Source: Giardia intestinalis
Taxonomy: Eukaryota
Assembly (NCBI GenBank): GCA_000002435.2
Contig: CM018792.1
Reading direction: 5' to 3' (one strand)
Length of the DNA: 64,000 nt
Shown: positions 39,001 to 45,000 of the stretch, in pieces
Position numbering within the stretch: position 1 is the first letter of the stretch
How the letters are laid out: every line of letters starts with the position of its first letter
Position numbers: made by a program

Positions 39001-42000
39001 CAAGGCTCTCGTTGGGTTCAAGACCACTGGGATAGTCTATAATATTTTGATAAAATGATTCTATCAGATTGCGCTTCGTATTAATGTGCACATTATCTGA
39101 CGTTGCTACAGCTGTGTAGACATCTCTGTGGCTGCTCTTTATCGTTGACAACTGTGCCAGCATAGCTCTGTACTTATCGACAAACCTTGGAATAGATTGA
39201 GGGTCACATTCTGCTTTAAGCTTCTCCCATTGTGCCAAAAGCATGCTTTCTTGAAGGAGTGAATCGCTTGCTAGCTTAGAAAATATGCTCTTGGCGTCGT
39301 CCAGCTGAACGTGAGAGCCAGAAATGTTGTGTGCTTTAAGAGTATTAGTGTATGCTTCTGCAAGTGCAGTATCTTCTGATCGCAAATTCAGGTACAGAAC
39401 TAGACTATCACCACTGGCGCATATTTTCTGAGAAAGGAGCGTAGAAATAGGAAGCTCGGCCAATTGCATCTGACGTGACTTACGGTCTTTGGCGATATCC
39501 CGATGATCGCTGTTTGCAGCACAAAGTCCAAGAAGTTTAGAGAGGTCAGTCCCAGCTTTAGCAAGGCTTGCAAAGTCAGTAGTAAACATGGTCAGCAACT
39601 CATGTTCCCTCCTCAGCTTGTCTCTGCACTGCTCTTCGTTAGCCATTTCCTTAGTAAGCTTGTGCAGTTCTCCTTCTTGATCGGCGACAGCCTTTAGTGC
39701 TGTGGTGTAACACACCTCGGAAGAAGCCAGCTCCTTTGGGGGCGGATGGAACTCTTTGGATAGCTTGGTGAAACGATCAAGGTTGAGTATTTGATCAGTG
39801 GACTTGCTAATTTCCTCCGGTGTCTCGAACATCCAGTGGCTTTTGGTCTCACTGCATATTAGGCAATATTGAAACAGCCCATCACACAGTTGCAGAGCAG
39901 AGGATAACTCAGGAGAATCGGGTGTTCTGTTTCTCCGTGTAGAACTTACCTTATCCCCTCCTCCACGCTTAATGGTTCGTGTAAGTTCAAGAAGCACCTG
40001 ATTGCTTTTCAGGGATGTCATGGGTATTCCCTTTACACTCTTTCCTCTGGTACTCTTCTTGCAATCAACCTTCTTGCAATTAACGGCCTCCTTTAAAGGG
40101 GGCTCAAAACCAGGATCTTCTATTGTCTTTGAGTTCGCCTCCGAAGTATTTGGTTCGTGTCTCAAAATACATTGCATAAGCATTACTGCGTTCTCTGGGG
40201 CAACCTTTGGCTCTATACGGTCATACACGGGTCTTTCCTGACTCAAAAGATATAGTAGAGCTTCAAGCAGGGTACTCTTCCCTGCACCATTATGACCGGT
40301 AATAATCGTCAAGTTAGGAGAAAAAACAATGGTACTAAGCTGGTCTCTGTAGCTTCTGATGTTCTTAAGCGTCAGCTGGTCAAGGTAGTACATAATAAGT
40401 TTACATTGAGGTACTCAAAGGAGGACCTGCTCTAACAGGTCCAGGTACATCTGTCTAAGCTCGTAGTAGTGGAGCTCAAGTGCCTGTTGTGGACCAGCTC
40501 CTGATGCAAGTCGATCTTTAATGGCGTGCATCAGTGTCATGATGCGGTCCGCTTCAGCAACTACATCTTGCGATGCATGAAACAGAGCTACTTGGGAGGG
40601 TCGTCCTGCTGTTCCAAGATATCCACTATATGGTCTCTGCCCCATATGCATCGACCCTGGATGCTGGTACAGAGCCAGTTGTGATACTGGGAGGGAAGAT
40701 CCATACTCCGTTGCAGGCACTACTCTTGCTGCTCTTCTGCTCTCTGGAGGCTGCTGGGATCCCTTATGTCGATGCCTAGTAGTCTGGACCCTGGAGTCAC
40801 CAACAGACCGCGTGATCCTGTTATCAAATGTATCGTCTAGAAGGATAGAGCTCTTTGTTTCTAAGGAGACGTTAGTCAGATCAGATAATAGAGTCATGTA
40901 GTCATCAGATGGGGTGGAAACTTGCGTAGCAGATGAGGGCTGTGGAATCGATGTGGTCGGCTGCCGGACTGGCACGTCCGACTGACTTTCTGTTACTGTG
41001 CTTACCTTCAGTGGATAGTTGAAGAGCTGCGTTGAAAAGTTCCCGTAGGACGGGGGAACGTCATTGGTCTCAAGGCTCTGTTGAGATTCAGTGACCGTTT
41101 TGCTTGGTGTGGGCAAGTACTGGGTCGTAAGAGATGGCTCTGGAAGGACAGAGCTTATCTTATCCGGAAGATTGACACTTCCTCGGATATAGGATGAGCT
41201 ATTGACGGGTATATTGGCAGGGCTTTCAAGACAAGGTTGCTCGTCATCTGGCTGATTACCGAGCTTTGCATCTCCTTTGCTAGTGTTCTGAGAACATGGC
41301 GTATAGTCTGGAAGCAGAAATACGGCCTTGTTATGCAGATAAGCTGACAGCGTATCCATTTTTTACTCTGCCAGCAGGTCACAAATGTAAGCTCCGCTGA
41401 GCAGTGATCTGTCTAAGCAGACAATGATTCCTCCATATTGCTTCACAAACATCACGGCGTCCACATACTGACGGAAGCCCAAACTGCTGAGTGTGAAATC
41501 GAGAAGGTACTGGCGGGTCTGTGTGTTTGGTGGGACATGGGTAGACTCAGTGATAACGTACCACTGTATGGTTGACCAGGTGGAAACCTTTTGTCCAGAA
41601 AGTCGCATGAGGCGCTGCAGCTGACAGATTGGGATGGCGTCTATCCCATCTCTAGGGAAGATGTAGAGAGTTTTCTGCTGAGGTGAAAAAGGTGCAGTGT
41701 TTGTAGAAAGTCTGTCATGGGTGGCTCCCTCCTGTAGATGAGTGAGATAGTGAGTAAGCACATTTATATAGATGGGCAAGGGCTTCAGATCCGGGCCCAC
41801 AATAGAGCAGTATTCTCCGTTCCACGGGAAGCTGTGGATGTTGTTAGTGATGCGATATACGTCTCGAGACTCAGCCTCTGATGCTTCGTAGACAGGGCAG
41901 AACTCCCAGACAATCCACGGAATAGCCATACTAGTTAAGCGTCTTAGCTGCTTGTCCAGGATTGTCTCCCCTTCCGGTGCACCATAGGTAACATCACCTA

Positions 42001-45000
42001 GTTCTCCAATTACCATCCACGAAAATCCGCCAGTCTCTTGGGATCTTATGTGGTTCTGTACAATGCAATCTATGGATGGGCCAACATTCGTAAGCGGTTG
42101 GTAGCAGTGTGGTGCAAAAACAAGTCGCTTACGGTCGAATCCGGGAAGAACCTCGCACACTCTATTGCAGCACCCATCAAGTCCTATAGAGAACCTCATG
42201 AGGTAGCTCACGTCGTAGTTGAAGGGTTCCAGAAAGTAGTATCCATGGAATCCAGTCTTTTCTAGGCCAGCAATGGCGCGTGCGTAGAACTCTATCAGCT
42301 GTTCACGCCTGGCTCTGGTTTGCCACGGAACGAAAAGTAGCTGGCCTGCAAATACTTCTGGCAGGCAAGGCTCGTTGATTATGTCAATGGCATCAACGAA
42401 CAAGCCATCTCTTGCATATAATCTCTGCAAGATGGCAGTGACACAATAAACATACAACTCTTGCAGGGCCATGCGCGGCCAACCAGGCATCTCATCGATC
42501 AATGCGTTGTCCCAAAATCTCATCCAGCAAGTCCAGTACCGCCTGTCCGTCAAAGGTTGTGAACCCCAGGACTCTCCAAGTCCCTTGAAGACCGTGTGGG
42601 CAGTACGTAGGGATGCCGGAAGAAACACATCTGCAAGCCCGCTGCCTCCCAAACGTCTCGAATAGTTGTCTTGGTGAAAGTCTAAGACAACGAAGAATCT
42701 ATGAGCGTGCGCAGCCATGATGAAGTCCCCTACACCATCAACGTACTCATCAACAATGCCTCCTGATGTAGTGAAGCATGCTTCCAGAAAGACGAGTAAT
42801 CGGATGCAGTTGAAGCCTAGTGAGGATATACATTCAAGTCCTGCTGAGACACTGTGTTTACCAAACGGCTCAAACACATGTTGTGGGGGTAAGTAGCTGC
42901 CCTGTGGACCTGAGTCTACCGGGTTAAAAGGCATACCCTTACTGTGTGAAGAAACATTCACTCCACGGAGACAGGGGATAGGTATGGACTGTCTGGGCGC
43001 CATTACAAATTTAGAAGCAGTGATGGAAGTTTACTACCCATCTGAATGTAAGAGGTTTATCGGTCATATCTTGGTCAACATCCGCATCCACCACTCTCCT
43101 TGGAGGGTGCTTCAGTCTTCATGTTGACTGTGTTCTTTGACGTAGACGCCGCCTTCACACCACAGGATTCATCCGTAATGTCTATTTCTCCGGAATTAAC
43201 CTTGTCGAGAACAGCTTTGGCAATTATCATGAACGCCTCCTCAACATTGCTGTTCGTCTTGGCAGACGTCTCAATGAAGAAGAGGTTGTTTTCTTTAGCA
43301 AATTTCTCCCCCTCGTCGTAGGTGACCATGCGAGAGGACTCTCTGTCGGTCTTATTACCCACGAGGAGAATAGTGGTCTTGTCGCCACCATAGGTGCGGC
43401 ATTCTTCGAGCCAGTTTGCAACATGTTCAAAACTTGCTCTGCGGGTTATGTCGTATACTAGGAGGGCACAGCAGCTTCCACGATAGTAACTGCGCGTGAT
43501 CGAGCGGAAAGACTCTTGGCCACATGTATCCCAAATCTGAGCCTTGATCTTTTTCCCCCCGACCTCTATCGTTCGAGTACCGTACTCTACGCCTACTGTC
43601 ATATCGTGCGCGTTTTGGAAGCGCTGCTCAGTAAACTGCAGAAGCAGGCAGGACTTTCCTACAGCCGTGTCGCCGACGACAATGTACTTAAACAGGTAGT
43701 TGTAGGAGCTATCGGCCATGGACTATAAGTCTTCTTTGAATTTTTTTTGAATTTTAATTTTAAATATCATGTGTAGAGGAGAGAGCCATAGAGACGACGG
43801 TGGCCTTGAGAAACTGATCTTGACTGTCTGCAATACAAGTTGTAACGTGTAGAATCATTTTACTTTGCTTTGCAACTAAGCAACAAGAGCTTATGAAATT
43901 AGTAAACATAATAAAATGCTTCTCATTGGTTCTTTGCTGGCCACAGTCCTTAGCTTTGGCCCTTGTCCTGCCGACAATCCGCCTGCTGATTGCTTGATGT
44001 GTATCTCGAACACTGTCCCCCTCTGCATCATGTGCGATAGACTTCGCCGTCCTTCGCTTGGTCCCGTGGACGGCGTTTGTACCAGTGATAGAGCGAAAAT
44101 CCACGACGCGTGCACTGACACGGGTCTCTACCAAGACTTTGGATTTTGCATGCACTGTGCCCCGGGATGGTTCCTCCACGGCTACAACAACGTCACAGGC
44201 GCTGAGGGCGGTTGCTTCAGGTGCGACCATGTAGCGGCAGGAGGTATTGACCACTGTGACACGTGCACCCCTGGGAACATGAACACTACTATCAATCAGG
44301 TTGTTCGCGTTATTTGCACAAAATGCAAAGCAGGATATCAACTCAATGGGGACGGAAGCGCCTGCACAGATGTCTCGGGCGAGGCTAAGTGCAAGGCAGG
44401 CCAGCAGAAGTGCAAGACTTGCAAATCTGACAACAGTGGATGTGCAACCTGTGATGACGGGTATGGTCTTAAGAGTGGATCGTGTGTAGTTTGCTCGGAG
44501 AAGTGTCTCCTTTGCAATAATGACGCTGATACTTGCACCTCTTGCACGCAGTCTGTGTTAAAGGACGGAAAGTGCGTTTCTTGCGATCAAGGCGAGAACA
44601 TGGCCGGGTGCTTCAGTTGCCTTTCGCCAGCAGATACGGGAACATCCACAGGCCGGTGCACGTTAGCATCAGGAAGCTACTGGGTACAGGACGATGGTAC
44701 GACAGCCAAGTGCACGATCACCAACTGCGTGCGCTGCATGAATCTGTTTGGAAAAGAATACTGCACCACATGCGTTAATGATTACTTCGTGTTGGACGGC
44801 GTCTGCGAGAAGTATTATAAACTGTCTGGCGAAGGCACAAAGGGGTGTTCGGACGGCGTTGTTGGTATGTGCCGATCGTGCGTGGGCAAGGACGTCTTTT
44901 GGTTCCTGAACACGTGTCTTACCATAACCGGTACAATAGGCAAAACGGTCTGTAGGGCTATGAACCAAACGAGCCATATCTGCACAGACTGCATGCCTGG

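What the first reader, a model, noticed from the sequence alone, without database searches (positions are those of the whole stretch)
41357..43003. GH5 endoglycoceramidase-like hydrolase in a parasite with very few glycosidases; possible lateral acquisition; stop and next ATG 3 nt apart
The xHQDxY / NEP / GELG constellation places this in GH5, closest by eye to endoglycoceramidase/glucosylceramidase-type enzymes. Such an enzyme could act on host or cyst-wall glycolipids. Giardia's published lateral-transfer candidates are dominated by metabolic hydrolases. The gene's TAA is followed by AAA and then the ATG of the next same-strand gene (TAAAAAATG). The downstream gene's promoter must therefore lie inside this coding sequence.
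Basis: partly seen in the sequence, partly recalled or inferred. Interest (0 to 1): 0.5.

Follow-up and report, generated by a model that had tools for sequence, protein, structure and literature searches.

The report
Giardia GH5 glycolipid hydrolase, already annotated
This is the known single-copy Giardia gene GL50803_12066, an intact family-5 glycosidase probably acting on glucosyl-lipids; Giardia shares it with other metamonad protists rather than having recently taken it from bacteria, and its 3-base gap to the next gene is the tight end of normal Giardia gene packing.

Summary
The ORF is real: minus strand 41363..43003, 546 aa. It is 100% identical to Giardia intestinalis WB "Endoglycosylceramidase" (GL50803_12066), reported as up-regulated during encystation.

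GH5 membership holds. Pfam PF00150 passes its cut-off, the predicted TIM barrel best matches Rhodococcus endoglycoceramidases, and all eight canonical GH5 residues are invariant. E211 and E334 align with the mutated catalytic Glu233 and Glu351 of EGCase II.

Recent lateral acquisition is not supported.
- The closest relatives are all metamonads (Carpediemonas, Kipferlia, Hexamita, Paratrimastix, Barthelona), forming a 100%-bootstrap clade.
- A Rab2-like→GH5 gene pair is syntenic in G. muris and two uncultured relatives.
- Codon usage is typical of the window.

An ancient transfer into the metamonad ancestor cannot be excluded.

A refinement: the protein has no signal peptide. It carries the WNGE motif that supplies the single-sugar cap Trp and a glucose-binding Glu in fungal sterylglucosidase Sgl1. 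True endoglycoceramidase relatives lack this motif. It therefore more likely works as an intracellular exo-β-glucosidase on glucosylceramide. This is inferred, not shown.

TAAAAAATG is confirmed and invariant in four assemblages. It merges Giardia's AGTAAA poly(A) signal, the stop codon and an A-rich initiator. The median intergenic gap in the window is 60 nt.

Overall: ordinary and already annotated.

The parts
41363..43003 (-). Complete coding sequence (546 aa plus TAA) of the GH5 gene, identical to G. intestinalis WB 'Endoglycosylceramidase' XP_037901897.1 / GL50803_12066.
   Evidence: ORF. 100% identity over full length. The GL50803_12066 <-> GLP15_1995 mapping (supplementary table S3 of PMC8700996) matches P0002, which is GLP15_1995.
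41744..42976 (-). Catalytic (beta/alpha)8 domain, residues about 10-420.
   Evidence: AlphaFold2 model with alternating strands and helices and high pLDDT in the core. Foldseek best hits are Rhodococcus EGCase I and II at 1e-11. Profile against PDB gives EGCase II at 1.6e-44. dN/dS is 0.06-0.08.
42368..42376 (-). N210-E211-P212; E211 is the predicted acid/base catalyst.
   Evidence: Invariant in alignments of 9 and 16 sequences. Aligns with the 'NEP' of EGCase II, which reads 'NAP' in the E233A mutant structure 2osy. Corresponds to Asn269/Glu270 of Sgl1.
41996..42007 (-). G333-E334-L335-G336; E334 is the predicted nucleophile.
   Evidence: E334 is invariant. Aligns with 'GEFG' of EGCase II, which reads 'GSFG' in the E351S mutant 2osx.
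41813..41824 (-). W394-N395-G396-E397 ('WNGE') motif, proposed single-sugar cap Trp plus glucose-binding Glu.
   Evidence: W394 and E397 are invariant in 16 metamonad sequences. The motif aligns with DNWNGEDLS of Sgl1 (7lpo) and SglA (8exd). In Sgl1, Trp584 blocks a second sugar and Glu587 binds glucose (PMC8497620). The motif is absent from relatives of EGCase I and II.
41366..41737 (-). C-terminal tail, residues 423-546; specific to G. intestinalis in sequence and of unknown fold.
   Evidence: pLDDT below 40. No Pfam hit. Absent from G. muris, whose protein is 417 aa. No detectable homology to the tails of other metamonad homologues. Still under purifying selection, dN/dS 0.16-0.33.
41357..41367 (-). 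Junction AGTAAAAAATG: AGTAAA poly(A)-signal consensus overlapping the TAA stop, a 3-nt spacer, and an A-rich initiator running into the ATG of the next gene.
   Evidence: Sequence. The 14-nt stretch GAGTAAAAAATGGA is invariant in four assemblages whose GH5 proteins are 67-84% identical. AGTAAA is the most used Giardia poly(A) signal, and overlap of signal and stop is known in diplomonads (PMC3916229). The same overlap occurs in 4 of 26 genes of this window.
40415..41359 (-). Downstream same-strand gene (314 aa, no Pfam domain) whose core promoter must lie in the 3' end of the GH5 coding sequence.
   Evidence: ORF; no Pfam hit. Homologue in G. muris (195 aa, E = 1e-19), where it sits next to the Rad50-like gene but not next to GH5.
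43004..43074 (-). 71-nt intergenic region upstream of the GH5 gene: A/T-rich initiator (AAATTTGTAATG) and the AGTAAAC poly(A) signal of the upstream Rab gene.
   Evidence: Sequence; motif scan.
43075..43719 (-). Rab2-like GTPase gene directly upstream on the same strand; a conserved syntenic partner of the GH5 gene.
   Evidence: Pfam Ras at 2e-60. The same Rab→GH5 order occurs in P15, two other assemblages, G. muris, L001 and L002. Rab identity is 72% (G. muris, L002) and 51% (L001).

Best explanation
The feature is GL50803_12066, a single-copy, vertically inherited Giardia gene. It encodes a catalytically intact retaining beta-glycosidase of family GH5, in the branch that hydrolyses glycolipids.

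Shown: GH5 fold and motifs; acid/base E211 and nucleophile E334; strong purifying selection; an exclusive clade with other metamonads; conserved Rab2-like→GH5 synteny; no signal peptide or membrane segment.

Inferred mechanism: a double-displacement hydrolysis of the beta-glucosidic bond between a single glucose and a lipid aglycone. The most plausible substrate is glucosylceramide, which Giardia makes with GlcT1. The enzyme would act in the cytosol or on the cytosolic face of membranes. The reason is that counterparts exist for all eight Sgl1 active-site residues named in PMC8497620. These are the glucose contacts K22, H110, N210, E211, W366 and E397, the second-sugar-blocking Trp W394, and the nucleophile E334. 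Since the gene is reported to be co-induced with ceramide glucosyltransferase in encystation, it would then be the degradative arm of glucosylceramide turnover.

The 3-nt spacing to the next gene reflects Giardia's compact gene layout. One conserved 11-nt element, AGTAAAAAATG, serves as poly(A) signal, stop codon, initiator and start codon.
For: - Identity and annotation. Reported expression: PMC8700996.
- GH5 membership: Pfam PF00150 at 27.3 bits against a 23.5 cut-off; TIM-barrel model; Foldseek top hits EGCase I and II at 1e-11; profile hit to EGCase II at 1.6e-44, with the E233A and E351S mutant chains aligning on E211 and E334.
- Invariant residues R68, H110, N210, E211, H299, Y301, E334 and W366 within Giardia and close relatives.
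- Selection: dN/dS 0.06-0.08 in the catalytic part.
- Vertical descent: the top hits are metamonads; the metamonad clade has 100% bootstrap support in trees of 129 and 204 sequences, and diplomonads 74-84%; synteny; typical codon usage.
- Exo-type inference: the WNGE motif aligns to Sgl1 and SglA. The roles of Lys47, His142, Asn269, Glu270, Trp570, Trp584 and Glu587 are given in PMC8497620. One tree split holds 66 of 67 motif-bearing sequences, including all metamonads and a fungal YIR007W homologue (taken here as a GH5_12 representative); relatives of EGCase I and II fall outside it and lack the motif.
- No signal peptide in any full-length metamonad homologue.
- Junction; literature.
Against: - No biochemical data exist for this protein or for any member of the metamonad clade.
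- The Sgl1/SglA alignment at WNGE is a short isolated segment with a negative HMM domain score (-4.3 and -0.9). The equivalence rests on motif identity and position after strand 8, not on a full structural superposition.
- The loops around the active site are low-confidence in the model.
- A metamonad-only profile scores the fungal exo-enzymes and the bacterial endo-enzymes almost equally (66-78 bits).
- The large cap insertion of Sgl1 is absent, and no C-terminal beta-sandwich (PF18564) is detected.
- Trees are neighbour-joining on saturated distances (about 1.5-2.2 substitutions per site). Internal nodes other than metamonad and diplomonad monophyly are weak.
- Steryl glucosides or other beta-glucosides remain possible substrates.
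Confidence: 0.6

Rival explanations
1. Recent lateral transfer: Giardia or its immediate ancestors acquired a bacterial GH5 endoglycoceramidase gene.
For: Bacterial homologues are numerous (409 confirmed loci in prokaryotic genomes) and include myxobacteria, Bacteroidetes and Actinomycetota. The family is patchy in eukaryotes; for example, Trichomonas has only an unrelated GH5_4 (PMC11288935).
Against: All best hits are metamonads (E = 6e-39 to 1e-14), ahead of any bacterial sequence (best 1.7e-11). The metamonad clade has 100% bootstrap support. The Rab2-like→GH5 gene pair is conserved in G. muris, L001 and L002. Bacterial identity is only 21-30%. GC, GC3 and codon choice are typical of the window.
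Confidence: 0.03
2. Ancient lateral transfer: the common ancestor of the sampled metamonads acquired the gene from a bacterium, possibly of myxobacterial type, and it has been inherited vertically since.
For: By distance, the non-metamonad sequences nearest the clade are myxobacterial (1.5-1.6). The one labelled fungal sequence in the tree, a YIR007W homologue, is farther (2.23). Metamonads sit in an 87-member split dominated by myxobacterial and deltaproteobacterial sequences. The gene is absent from Trichomonas.
Against: The sister group is unresolved: the best candidate grouping has 39% bootstrap support, and a midpoint root falls on the metamonad stem. Distances are saturated. Most database hits are unlabelled metagenomic proteins, so eukaryotic relatives may be hidden among them. 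Only one labelled non-metamonad eukaryotic sequence, a fungal one, was in the tree, so the wider eukaryotic diversity of this GH5 branch was not sampled.
Confidence: 0.35
3. True endoglycoceramidase (EC 3.2.1.123), as the public annotation says. It would cleave whole oligosaccharides from host-derived glycosphingolipids such as gangliosides and lactosylceramide taken up from the gut.
For: The best structural and profile matches include Rhodococcus EGCase I and II and the endogalactosylceramidase 6jyz, listed as 'crystal structure of endogalactoceramidase'. The catalytic domain is the size of EGCase II and lacks the Sgl1 cap insertion. Giardia depends on host lipids (PMC6668603).
Against: The characterised subfamilies GH5_27, 28 and 29 are described as exclusively extracellular (PMC3526467), and this protein has no signal peptide. 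It carries the WNGE cap motif that relatives of EGCase I and II lack, and it falls on the other side of the tree split from them.
Confidence: 0.2
4. For the junction only: the downstream gene has no promoter of its own and is expressed from a read-through, dicistronic transcript or by termination-reinitiation, given the 3-nt spacing.
For: The stop and the ATG are 3 nt apart on the same strand, and the junction is invariant in four assemblages.
Against: Giardia core promoters are short AT-rich elements at and about 30 bp upstream of the start site. Extremely short 5' UTRs are described as essential for efficient translation (PMC1885649). The A-run before this ATG resembles other initiators in the window. 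In G. muris the same gene is expressed from a different neighbourhood. An AGTAAA poly(A) signal overlaps the GH5 stop.
Confidence: 0.1

Closest known systems
Fungal GH5_12-type enzymes: Cryptococcus Sgl1/EGCrP2 (PDB 7lpo), Aspergillus SglA (8exd), EGCrP1 glucosylceramidase, yeast YIR007W
   Same: GH5 barrel with catalytic Glu pair. Sgl1 is deposited as 'Cytoplasmic protein' and the Giardia protein has no signal peptide. Glucose-binding residues correspond (Lys47, His142, Asn269, Glu270, Trp570, Glu587 to K22, H110, N210, E211, W366, E397). The WNGE motif carries the cap Trp that limits the site to one sugar. These are the top hits of a metamonad-only profile (78.5 and 74.2 bits). A fungal YIR007W homologue falls in the same tree split.
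   Different: The Giardia protein is about 250 residues shorter. It lacks the large cap insertion that forms the sterol cavity and has no detectable C-terminal beta-sandwich (PF18564). Sequence distance is large (2.2 substitutions per site). It forms a separate 100%-supported metamonad clade.
Rhodococcus endoglycoceramidase II (GH5_28; PDB 2osw, 2osx, 2osy), EGCase I (5ccu) and the endogalactosylceramidase 6jyz
   Same: Best Foldseek matches (1e-11). Profile hit at 1.6e-44 over the whole catalytic domain. Same catalytic NEP and GE(F/L)G motifs. Similar catalytic-domain size.
   Different: EGCase I and 6jyz are deposited as 'putative secreted endoglycosylceramidase', and GH5_27-29 are described as extracellular. 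EGCase II has an open cleft for several sugars (PMC8497620). Their relatives recovered here lack the WNGE motif and lie outside the motif-bearing split. The Giardia protein has no signal peptide.
Metamonad homologues: Carpediemonas membranifera KAG9396974.1, Kipferlia bialata GIQ82476.1, Hexamita inflata 'Endoglycosylceramidase' paralogues, Paratrimastix pyriformis KAJ4459315.1, Barthelona sp. PCE KAL0231887.1, Eukaryota sp. GEM-RC1 KAL0235192.1
   Same: Shared motifs VNVSSxxK, DFHQDLYSRRLGG, NEP, EPxxYDVS, APHxYQP, GE(L/F)GD and WNxE. No N-terminal signal peptide in the full-length sequences. One exclusive clade.
   Different: 23-33% identity to the Giardia protein. The C-terminal tails are not alignable between lineages. 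The Paratrimastix and GEM-RC1 proteins end in a hydrophobic helix and may be tail-anchored; Giardia's does not. None has been characterised.

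Membership tests
Glycoside hydrolase family 5 (clan GH-A) | Match to the family profile above the curated threshold | tested here: met
   PF00150 at 27.3 bits against a cut-off of 23.5, E = 3.1e-6. All homologues carry precomputed PF00150.
Glycoside hydrolase family 5 (clan GH-A) | (beta/alpha)8 barrel fold | tested here: met
   AlphaFold2 model with pTM 0.71 and core blocks at pLDDT 80-95. 587 PDB matches at E <= 0.001; the 50 listed are all GH5 enzymes.
Glycoside hydrolase family 5 (clan GH-A) | Eight conserved residues (Arg, His, Asn, Glu acid/base, His, Tyr, Glu nucleophile, Trp) | tested here: met
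   R68, H110, N210, E211, H299, Y301, E334 and W366 are invariant in alignment A1. E211 and E334 align to the mutated Glu233 and Glu351 of EGCase II. In more distant metamonads the strand-8 position is Tyr instead of Trp. The list of eight residues is from my own knowledge of GH5.
Glycoside hydrolase family 5 (clan GH-A) | Retaining beta-glycosidase activity | not testable with these tools
   Needs an enzyme assay.
Endoglycoceramidases, EC 3.2.1.123 (GH5_27, GH5_28, GH5_29) | Extracellular or secreted enzyme (PMC3526467 describes these subfamilies as exclusively extracellular) | tested here: not met
   No N-terminal hydrophobic segment: the maximum Kyte-Doolittle score over the first 25 windows of 19 residues is 0.20. 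There is no membrane segment anywhere.
Endoglycoceramidases, EC 3.2.1.123 (GH5_27, GH5_28, GH5_29) | Groups with characterised EGCases in a phylogeny | tested here: not met
   Relatives of EGCase I and II (for example Actinomadura, 48% identical to EGCase II) lie outside the 87-member split that contains all metamonads. Neighbour-joining only, and no GH5_27 reference was available.
Endoglycoceramidases, EC 3.2.1.123 (GH5_27, GH5_28, GH5_29) | Open substrate cleft that accepts more than one sugar (no capping Trp) | tested here: inconclusive
   The Sgl1-type WNGE cap motif is present (W394, E397), which argues against an open cleft. The surrounding loops are low-confidence in the model, and no superposition was possible.
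Endoglycoceramidases, EC 3.2.1.123 (GH5_27, GH5_28, GH5_29) | Releases intact oligosaccharide from glycosphingolipids | not testable with these tools
   Needs an enzyme assay.
GH5_12 (fungal and bacterial beta-glucosylceramidase / sterylglucosidase; EGCrP1, Sgl1, YIR007W) | Sgl1 glucose-binding set (Lys, His, Asn, Glu, Trp, Glu) plus capping Trp | tested here: met
   K22, H110, N210 and E211 align directly. W394 and E397 align through the WNGED(L/M)S motif. W366 is assigned by GH5 topology and is inferred. Residue roles are from PMC8497620.
GH5_12 (fungal and bacterial beta-glucosylceramidase / sterylglucosidase; EGCrP1, Sgl1, YIR007W) | C-terminal beta-sandwich domain (PF18564) and enlarged cap region | tested here: not met
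   No PF18564 hit for the whole protein or for the tail alone. The tail is predicted at pLDDT below 40 with helices. The protein is 546 aa against 779-797 aa for SglA and Sgl1.
GH5_12 (fungal and bacterial beta-glucosylceramidase / sterylglucosidase; EGCrP1, Sgl1, YIR007W) | Placement inside the subfamily by CAZy/dbCAN subfamily models or a reference phylogeny | tested here: inconclusive
   It falls in the same large motif-bearing split as a fungal YIR007W homologue, but as a separate 100%-supported clade at distance 2.2. CAZy subfamily models are not available here.
Laterally acquired gene in Giardia | Nests within a bacterial clade, is absent from relatives, or shows atypical composition or context | tested here: not met
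   Metamonad clade at 100% bootstrap. Present in G. muris, Hexamita, Carpediemonas, Kipferlia, Paratrimastix and Barthelona. Syntenic with the Rab2-like gene. Composition and codon use are typical.

The most novel reading that the evidence does not exclude
The metamonad-wide, signal-peptide-less GH5 clade carrying the cap Trp is an undescribed GH5 subfamily of cytosolic-face glucosylceramidases. In Giardia it would be the missing catabolic enzyme of the 'five-gene' sphingolipid pathway, co-induced with glucosylceramide synthase to tune glucosylceramide levels during formation of encystation-specific vesicles. That would make the public name 'endoglycosylceramidase' functionally wrong.
Probability: 0.35. 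Interest if true: 0.45.

Novelty: already known. Interest (0 to 1): 0.2.

Why it matters
Glucosylceramide synthesis is reported to matter for Giardia encystation and cyst viability (PMC8700996). The lipid literature read here lists only five sphingolipid genes and no glycolipid hydrolase (PMC6668603).

If GL50803_12066 hydrolyses glucosylceramide, it completes a synthesis-degradation cycle at the stage that makes the parasite transmissible. It has no detectable sequence relationship to human lysosomal glucocerebrosidase, so it could be a selective target.

For genome interpretation, the result removes a candidate from the list of Giardia lateral transfers. It also shows that this GH5 lineage goes back at least to the common ancestor of Fornicata, Preaxostyla and barthelonids. 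The junction is a neat illustration of how Giardia stacks termination, polyadenylation, initiation and start signals into 11 bases, but it is not a new phenomenon.

Tried and rejected
- Word-indexed profile search with a 16-sequence alignment. It returned only the Giardia-group proteins already known plus two GH5/PF18564 proteins, so it did not help label relatives.
- Cluster look-ups to name the nearest non-metamonad hits. Most are unnamed metagenomic proteins or carry only 'endoglycosylceramidase', so a eukaryotic or bacterial origin for many tree tips remains unknown.
- Homology of the C-terminal tail (residues 423-546) to the tails of other metamonad homologues or to Pfam domains. hhalign probabilities were below 1%, BLAST found only the first ~25 shared residues, and there was no Pfam hit. 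The tail could not be called a diverged EGCase beta-sandwich.
- Resolving the sister group of the metamonad clade. The best candidate grouping had 39% bootstrap support and the midpoint root fell on the metamonad stem, so I make no claim about deep origin.
- Species-tree congruence inside the clade. It looked good in the 129-sequence tree. In the 204-sequence tree, Fornicata and Giardia+L001+L002 dropped to 7% and 2% bootstrap. I rely only on metamonad and diplomonad monophyly plus synteny.
- tRNA and Rfam scans of the window found nothing.
- The sigma-70 promoter and terminator scanner was not used, because it does not model eukaryotic Giardia promoters.
- Pseudogene or pseudo-enzyme was rejected: all catalytic residues are intact and dN/dS is 0.06-0.08.
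- Literature search for a published lateral-transfer claim for this gene found none.

Full report
**Observation.** The region holds one long ORF on the minus strand, 41363..43003 (546 aa, ATG to TAA). On the minus strand the 3' end reads GAG TAA AAA ATG GAT. The stop is at 41365..41363 and the ATG of the next same-strand ORF (40415..41359, 314 aa) is at 41359..41357. The strand was not stated, and the finding's start coordinate belongs to the neighbour's ATG.

**Identity.** The protein is 100% identical over its full length to Giardia intestinalis WB "Endoglycosylceramidase" (XP_037901897.1 / KAE8303413.1).
- Its assemblage-E orthologue P0002 is GLP15_1995.
- A supplementary table of PMC8700996 pairs GLP15_1995 with GL50803_12066, GSB_153692 and GMRT_10145. 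The gene is therefore GL50803_12066.
- That paper reports the gene as highly up-regulated together with ceramide glucosyltransferase at 10.5-14 h of encystation.
- It is listed among the 14-h genes without a Myb2 motif.
- A 2019 sphingolipid study still counts only five sphingolipid genes in Giardia and mentions no glycolipid hydrolase (PMC6668603).
- No paralogue was found in Giardia.

**GH5 membership and catalytic residues.** Pfam PF00150 scores 27.3 bits against a cut-off of 23.5.
- An AlphaFold2 model built from nine homologues has pTM 0.71 and a confident alternating strand-helix core. Residues 423-546 are below pLDDT 40.
- Foldseek against the PDB puts Rhodococcus endoglycoceramidases I and II first (E about 1e-11), followed by many GH5 cellulases.
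- A profile of 16 homologues hits EGCase II at 1.6e-44 across the whole catalytic domain.
- The deposited mutants 2osy (E233A, 'NAP') and 2osx (E351S, 'GSFG') differ from wild type exactly at the columns of Giardia E211 and E334.
- R68, H110, N210, E211, H299, Y301, E334 and W366 are invariant among Giardia and its close relatives. These are the canonical GH5 residues; that list is from my own knowledge of the family.
- Between assemblages, dN/dS is 0.06-0.08 in the catalytic part and 0.16-0.33 in the C-terminal tail. The gene encodes an intact, constrained enzyme.

**Lateral transfer.** An exhaustive phmmer search of 1.84 billion representatives, with cluster look-ups for names, gave these hits after Giardia:

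| Hit | E-value |
|---|---|
| G. muris | 6e-131 |
| Two uncultured relatives (P0008, P0009) | 3e-86, 2e-51 |
| Carpediemonas membranifera | 6e-39 |
| Kipferlia bialata | 9e-30 |
| Hexamita inflata (six near-identical paralogues) | 1e-29 |
| P0022, an unlabelled sequence | 2e-26 |
| Paratrimastix pyriformis | 6e-24 |
| 'Eukaryota sp. GEM-RC1' | 2e-17 |
| Barthelona sp. PCE | 1e-14 |
| First bacterial-type sequences | 1.7e-11 |

- GEM-RC1 is unclassified in NCBI. From memory it is a skoliomonad metamonad, which I did not verify.
- In neighbour-joining trees of the catalytic domain, the metamonad sequences form an exclusive clade with 100% bootstrap support. This held for 129 sequences (306 columns, 200 replicates) and for 204 sequences including 75 labelled prokaryotic ones (318 columns, 100 replicates). 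GEM-RC1, which is N-terminally truncated, was left out of both trees.
- Diplomonads are recovered at 74% and 84%. Deeper internal nodes are unstable.
- Independent support comes from synteny. A Rab2-like GTPase gene lies directly upstream on the same strand in the window, in three other G. intestinalis assemblages, in G. muris and in both uncultured relatives.
- The Rab proteins are 72%, 72% and 51% identical to the window's.
GC is 0.495 (window mean 0.496), GC3 is 0.523 (mean 0.537), and the synonymous-codon likelihood has z = +0.32 among 26 genes.
- Bacterial relatives are common but only 21-30% identical.

Acquisition by Giardia is therefore rejected. Whether the metamonad ancestor obtained the gene from bacteria is open. 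The nearest sequences by distance are myxobacterial (1.5-1.6 against 2.2 for the one labelled fungal sequence), but the sister group is unresolved. Trichomonas lacks this lineage; it has only a GH5_4 (PMC11288935).

**What kind of GH5.** According to Aspeborg et al. (PMC3526467), GH5_27, 28 and 29 are exclusively extracellular endoglycoceramidases. GH5_12 holds beta-glucosylceramidases and beta-glucosidases.
- A metamonad-only profile scores the two groups about equally: Sgl1 78.5, EGCase I 74.9, SglA 74.2, EGCase II 70.1 and the endogalactosylceramidase 6jyz 66 bits.
- First discriminating feature: no full-length metamonad homologue has a signal peptide. The bacterial hits P0026, P0028 and P0029 do. 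The Paratrimastix and GEM-RC1 proteins end in a strongly hydrophobic helix, which suggests tail anchoring with the enzyme facing the cytosol.
- Second: the motif W394-N-G-E397 is conserved, with W and E invariant in all 16 metamonad sequences. It aligns with DNWNGEDLS of Cryptococcus Sgl1 and Aspergillus SglA.
- In Sgl1, Trp584 sterically prevents binding of more than one sugar and Glu587 hydrogen-bonds the glucose. The other glucose contacts are Lys47, His142, Asn269, Glu270 and Trp570 (PMC8497620).
- With the one-residue numbering offset, these correspond to Giardia W394, E397, K22, H110, N210, E211 and, by topology, W366.
- In the 204-sequence tree a single split contains 66 of the 67 sequences that carry the motif, including all metamonads and a fungal YIR007W homologue. 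The closest relatives of EGCase I and II lie outside it and lack the motif.

I therefore think the enzyme works like the intracellular EGCrP/Sgl1-type exo-beta-glucosidases rather than like a secreted endoglycoceramidase. Glucosylceramide is the likely substrate, because Giardia makes it and the synthase is reported to be co-induced. This step is inference.

Caveats:
- The motif alignment is short.
- The Sgl1 cap insertion and the PF18564 beta-sandwich are absent.
- The active-site loops are poorly modelled.

I do not file the protein in GH5_12. It is a separate, uncharacterised metamonad clade.

**C-terminal tail.** Residues 423-546 have no Pfam match and no confident structure. They are missing from G. 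muris and are not alignable with the tails of other metamonad homologues. They are conserved in frame among assemblages, with dN/dS of 0.16-0.33. Their role is unknown.

**The junction.** GAGTAAAAAATGGA is invariant in four assemblages whose GH5 proteins are 67-84% identical, against 84% mean nucleotide identity around it.
- AGTAAA, the most used Giardia poly(A) signal, overlaps the stop. PMC3916229 describes such overlap of poly(A) signal and stop codon for Spironucleus and Trichomonas.
- AGTRAA overlaps the stop in 4 of 26 genes of this window. A-runs directly before the ATG are frequent.
- Giardia promoters consist of an AT-rich initiator at the start site and a second AT-rich element about 30 bp upstream. 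5' UTRs can be as short as about 3 nt, and intergenic spacers of 30-177 bp are called typical (PMC1885649).
- In this window the median spacer is 60 nt, with others of 7, 8, 12, 13 and 14 nt.
The arrangement is the tight end of normal Giardia packing.
- In G. muris the downstream gene (E = 1e-19) and the Rad50-like gene sit on the other side of the Rab2-like/GH5 pair and on the opposite strand. The tight junction therefore arose after a rearrangement in the G. intestinalis lineage.

**Verdict.** This is a real, intact and already annotated gene. The GH5/glycoceramidase-like call is right. The lateral-transfer idea is wrong for Giardia. The junction is ordinary. This analysis adds a metamonad-wide distribution, the Rab2-like synteny, and a reasoned case that 'endoglycosylceramidase' should read 'glucosyl-lipid exo-beta-glucosidase (EGCrP/Sgl1-like)', which only biochemistry can settle.

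Noticed in passing
window 41363-43719 (-); L083:5256-7254; L001:3940-7114; L002:465-3538: The gene pair Rab2-like GTPase → GH5, same strand and adjacent, is conserved from G. intestinalis to G. muris and two uncultured relatives. The GH5 proteins of those relatives are only about 30-40% identical by BLASTP. The pair is a useful synteny anchor in otherwise rearranged genomes.
   Followed up: yes
window 36230-41359 (-) vs L083:567-5221 (-): In G. muris the block [homologue of the 314-aa gene → Rad50/SMC-like gene] lies on the other side of the Rab2-like/GH5 pair and on the opposite strand. The G. muris GH5 also lacks the ~125-aa C-terminal tail. A rearrangement breakpoint therefore coincides with the 3' end of the GH5 gene.
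   Followed up: partly
proteins P0023 (Paratrimastix, residues 676-694) and P0024 (GEM-RC1, residues 538-556): Two distant metamonad homologues end in a strongly hydrophobic helix (Kyte-Doolittle score about 2.5-2.6). This suggests tail-anchored, cytosol-facing enzymes. Giardia's protein has no such segment.
   Followed up: partly
protein cluster of P0021 (Hexamita inflata): Free-living Hexamita inflata has at least six near-identical paralogues of this GH5. A metabolic reconstruction (PMC7762791) counted 'endoglycosylceramidase' as an acquisition in Trepomonas. If that is the same family, it would be ancestral to diplomonads rather than acquired. I did not check which Trepomonas protein was meant.
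   Followed up: no
window 50345-52411 (+): A 688-aa ATG ORF overlaps the 5' end of the minus-strand gene 47153..50467 by about 120 nt and the 3' end of 52305..54983 by about 105 nt. Either the genes overlap or the real start is a later ATG.
   Followed up: no
window 43720-43915 and 43916-45160 (+): A cysteine-rich, VSP/HCMP-like gene lies head-to-head with the Rab2-like gene across a 196-nt A/T-rich spacer (Pfam VSP 30.6 bits, just under its 31.4 cut-off). This is a candidate shared bidirectional promoter of the kind described for Giardia. The same neighbour is present in three other assemblages.
   Followed up: no
window 9349-9357 (-): A second very tight same-strand junction, 7 nt between a stop and the next ATG, shows that the 3-nt case is not unique in this window.
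   Followed up: partly
L002 (JGI metagenome 3300010163) and L001 (run SRR31929897): Two uncultured organisms carry Giardia-like gene order; L002 also has a Brix-domain gene nearby, as do the G. intestinalis loci. L002 has 58% GC and a Rab 72% identical to Giardia's. L001 has 47% GC and a Rab 51% identical. They are likely undescribed Giardia-related diplomonads.
   Followed up: no
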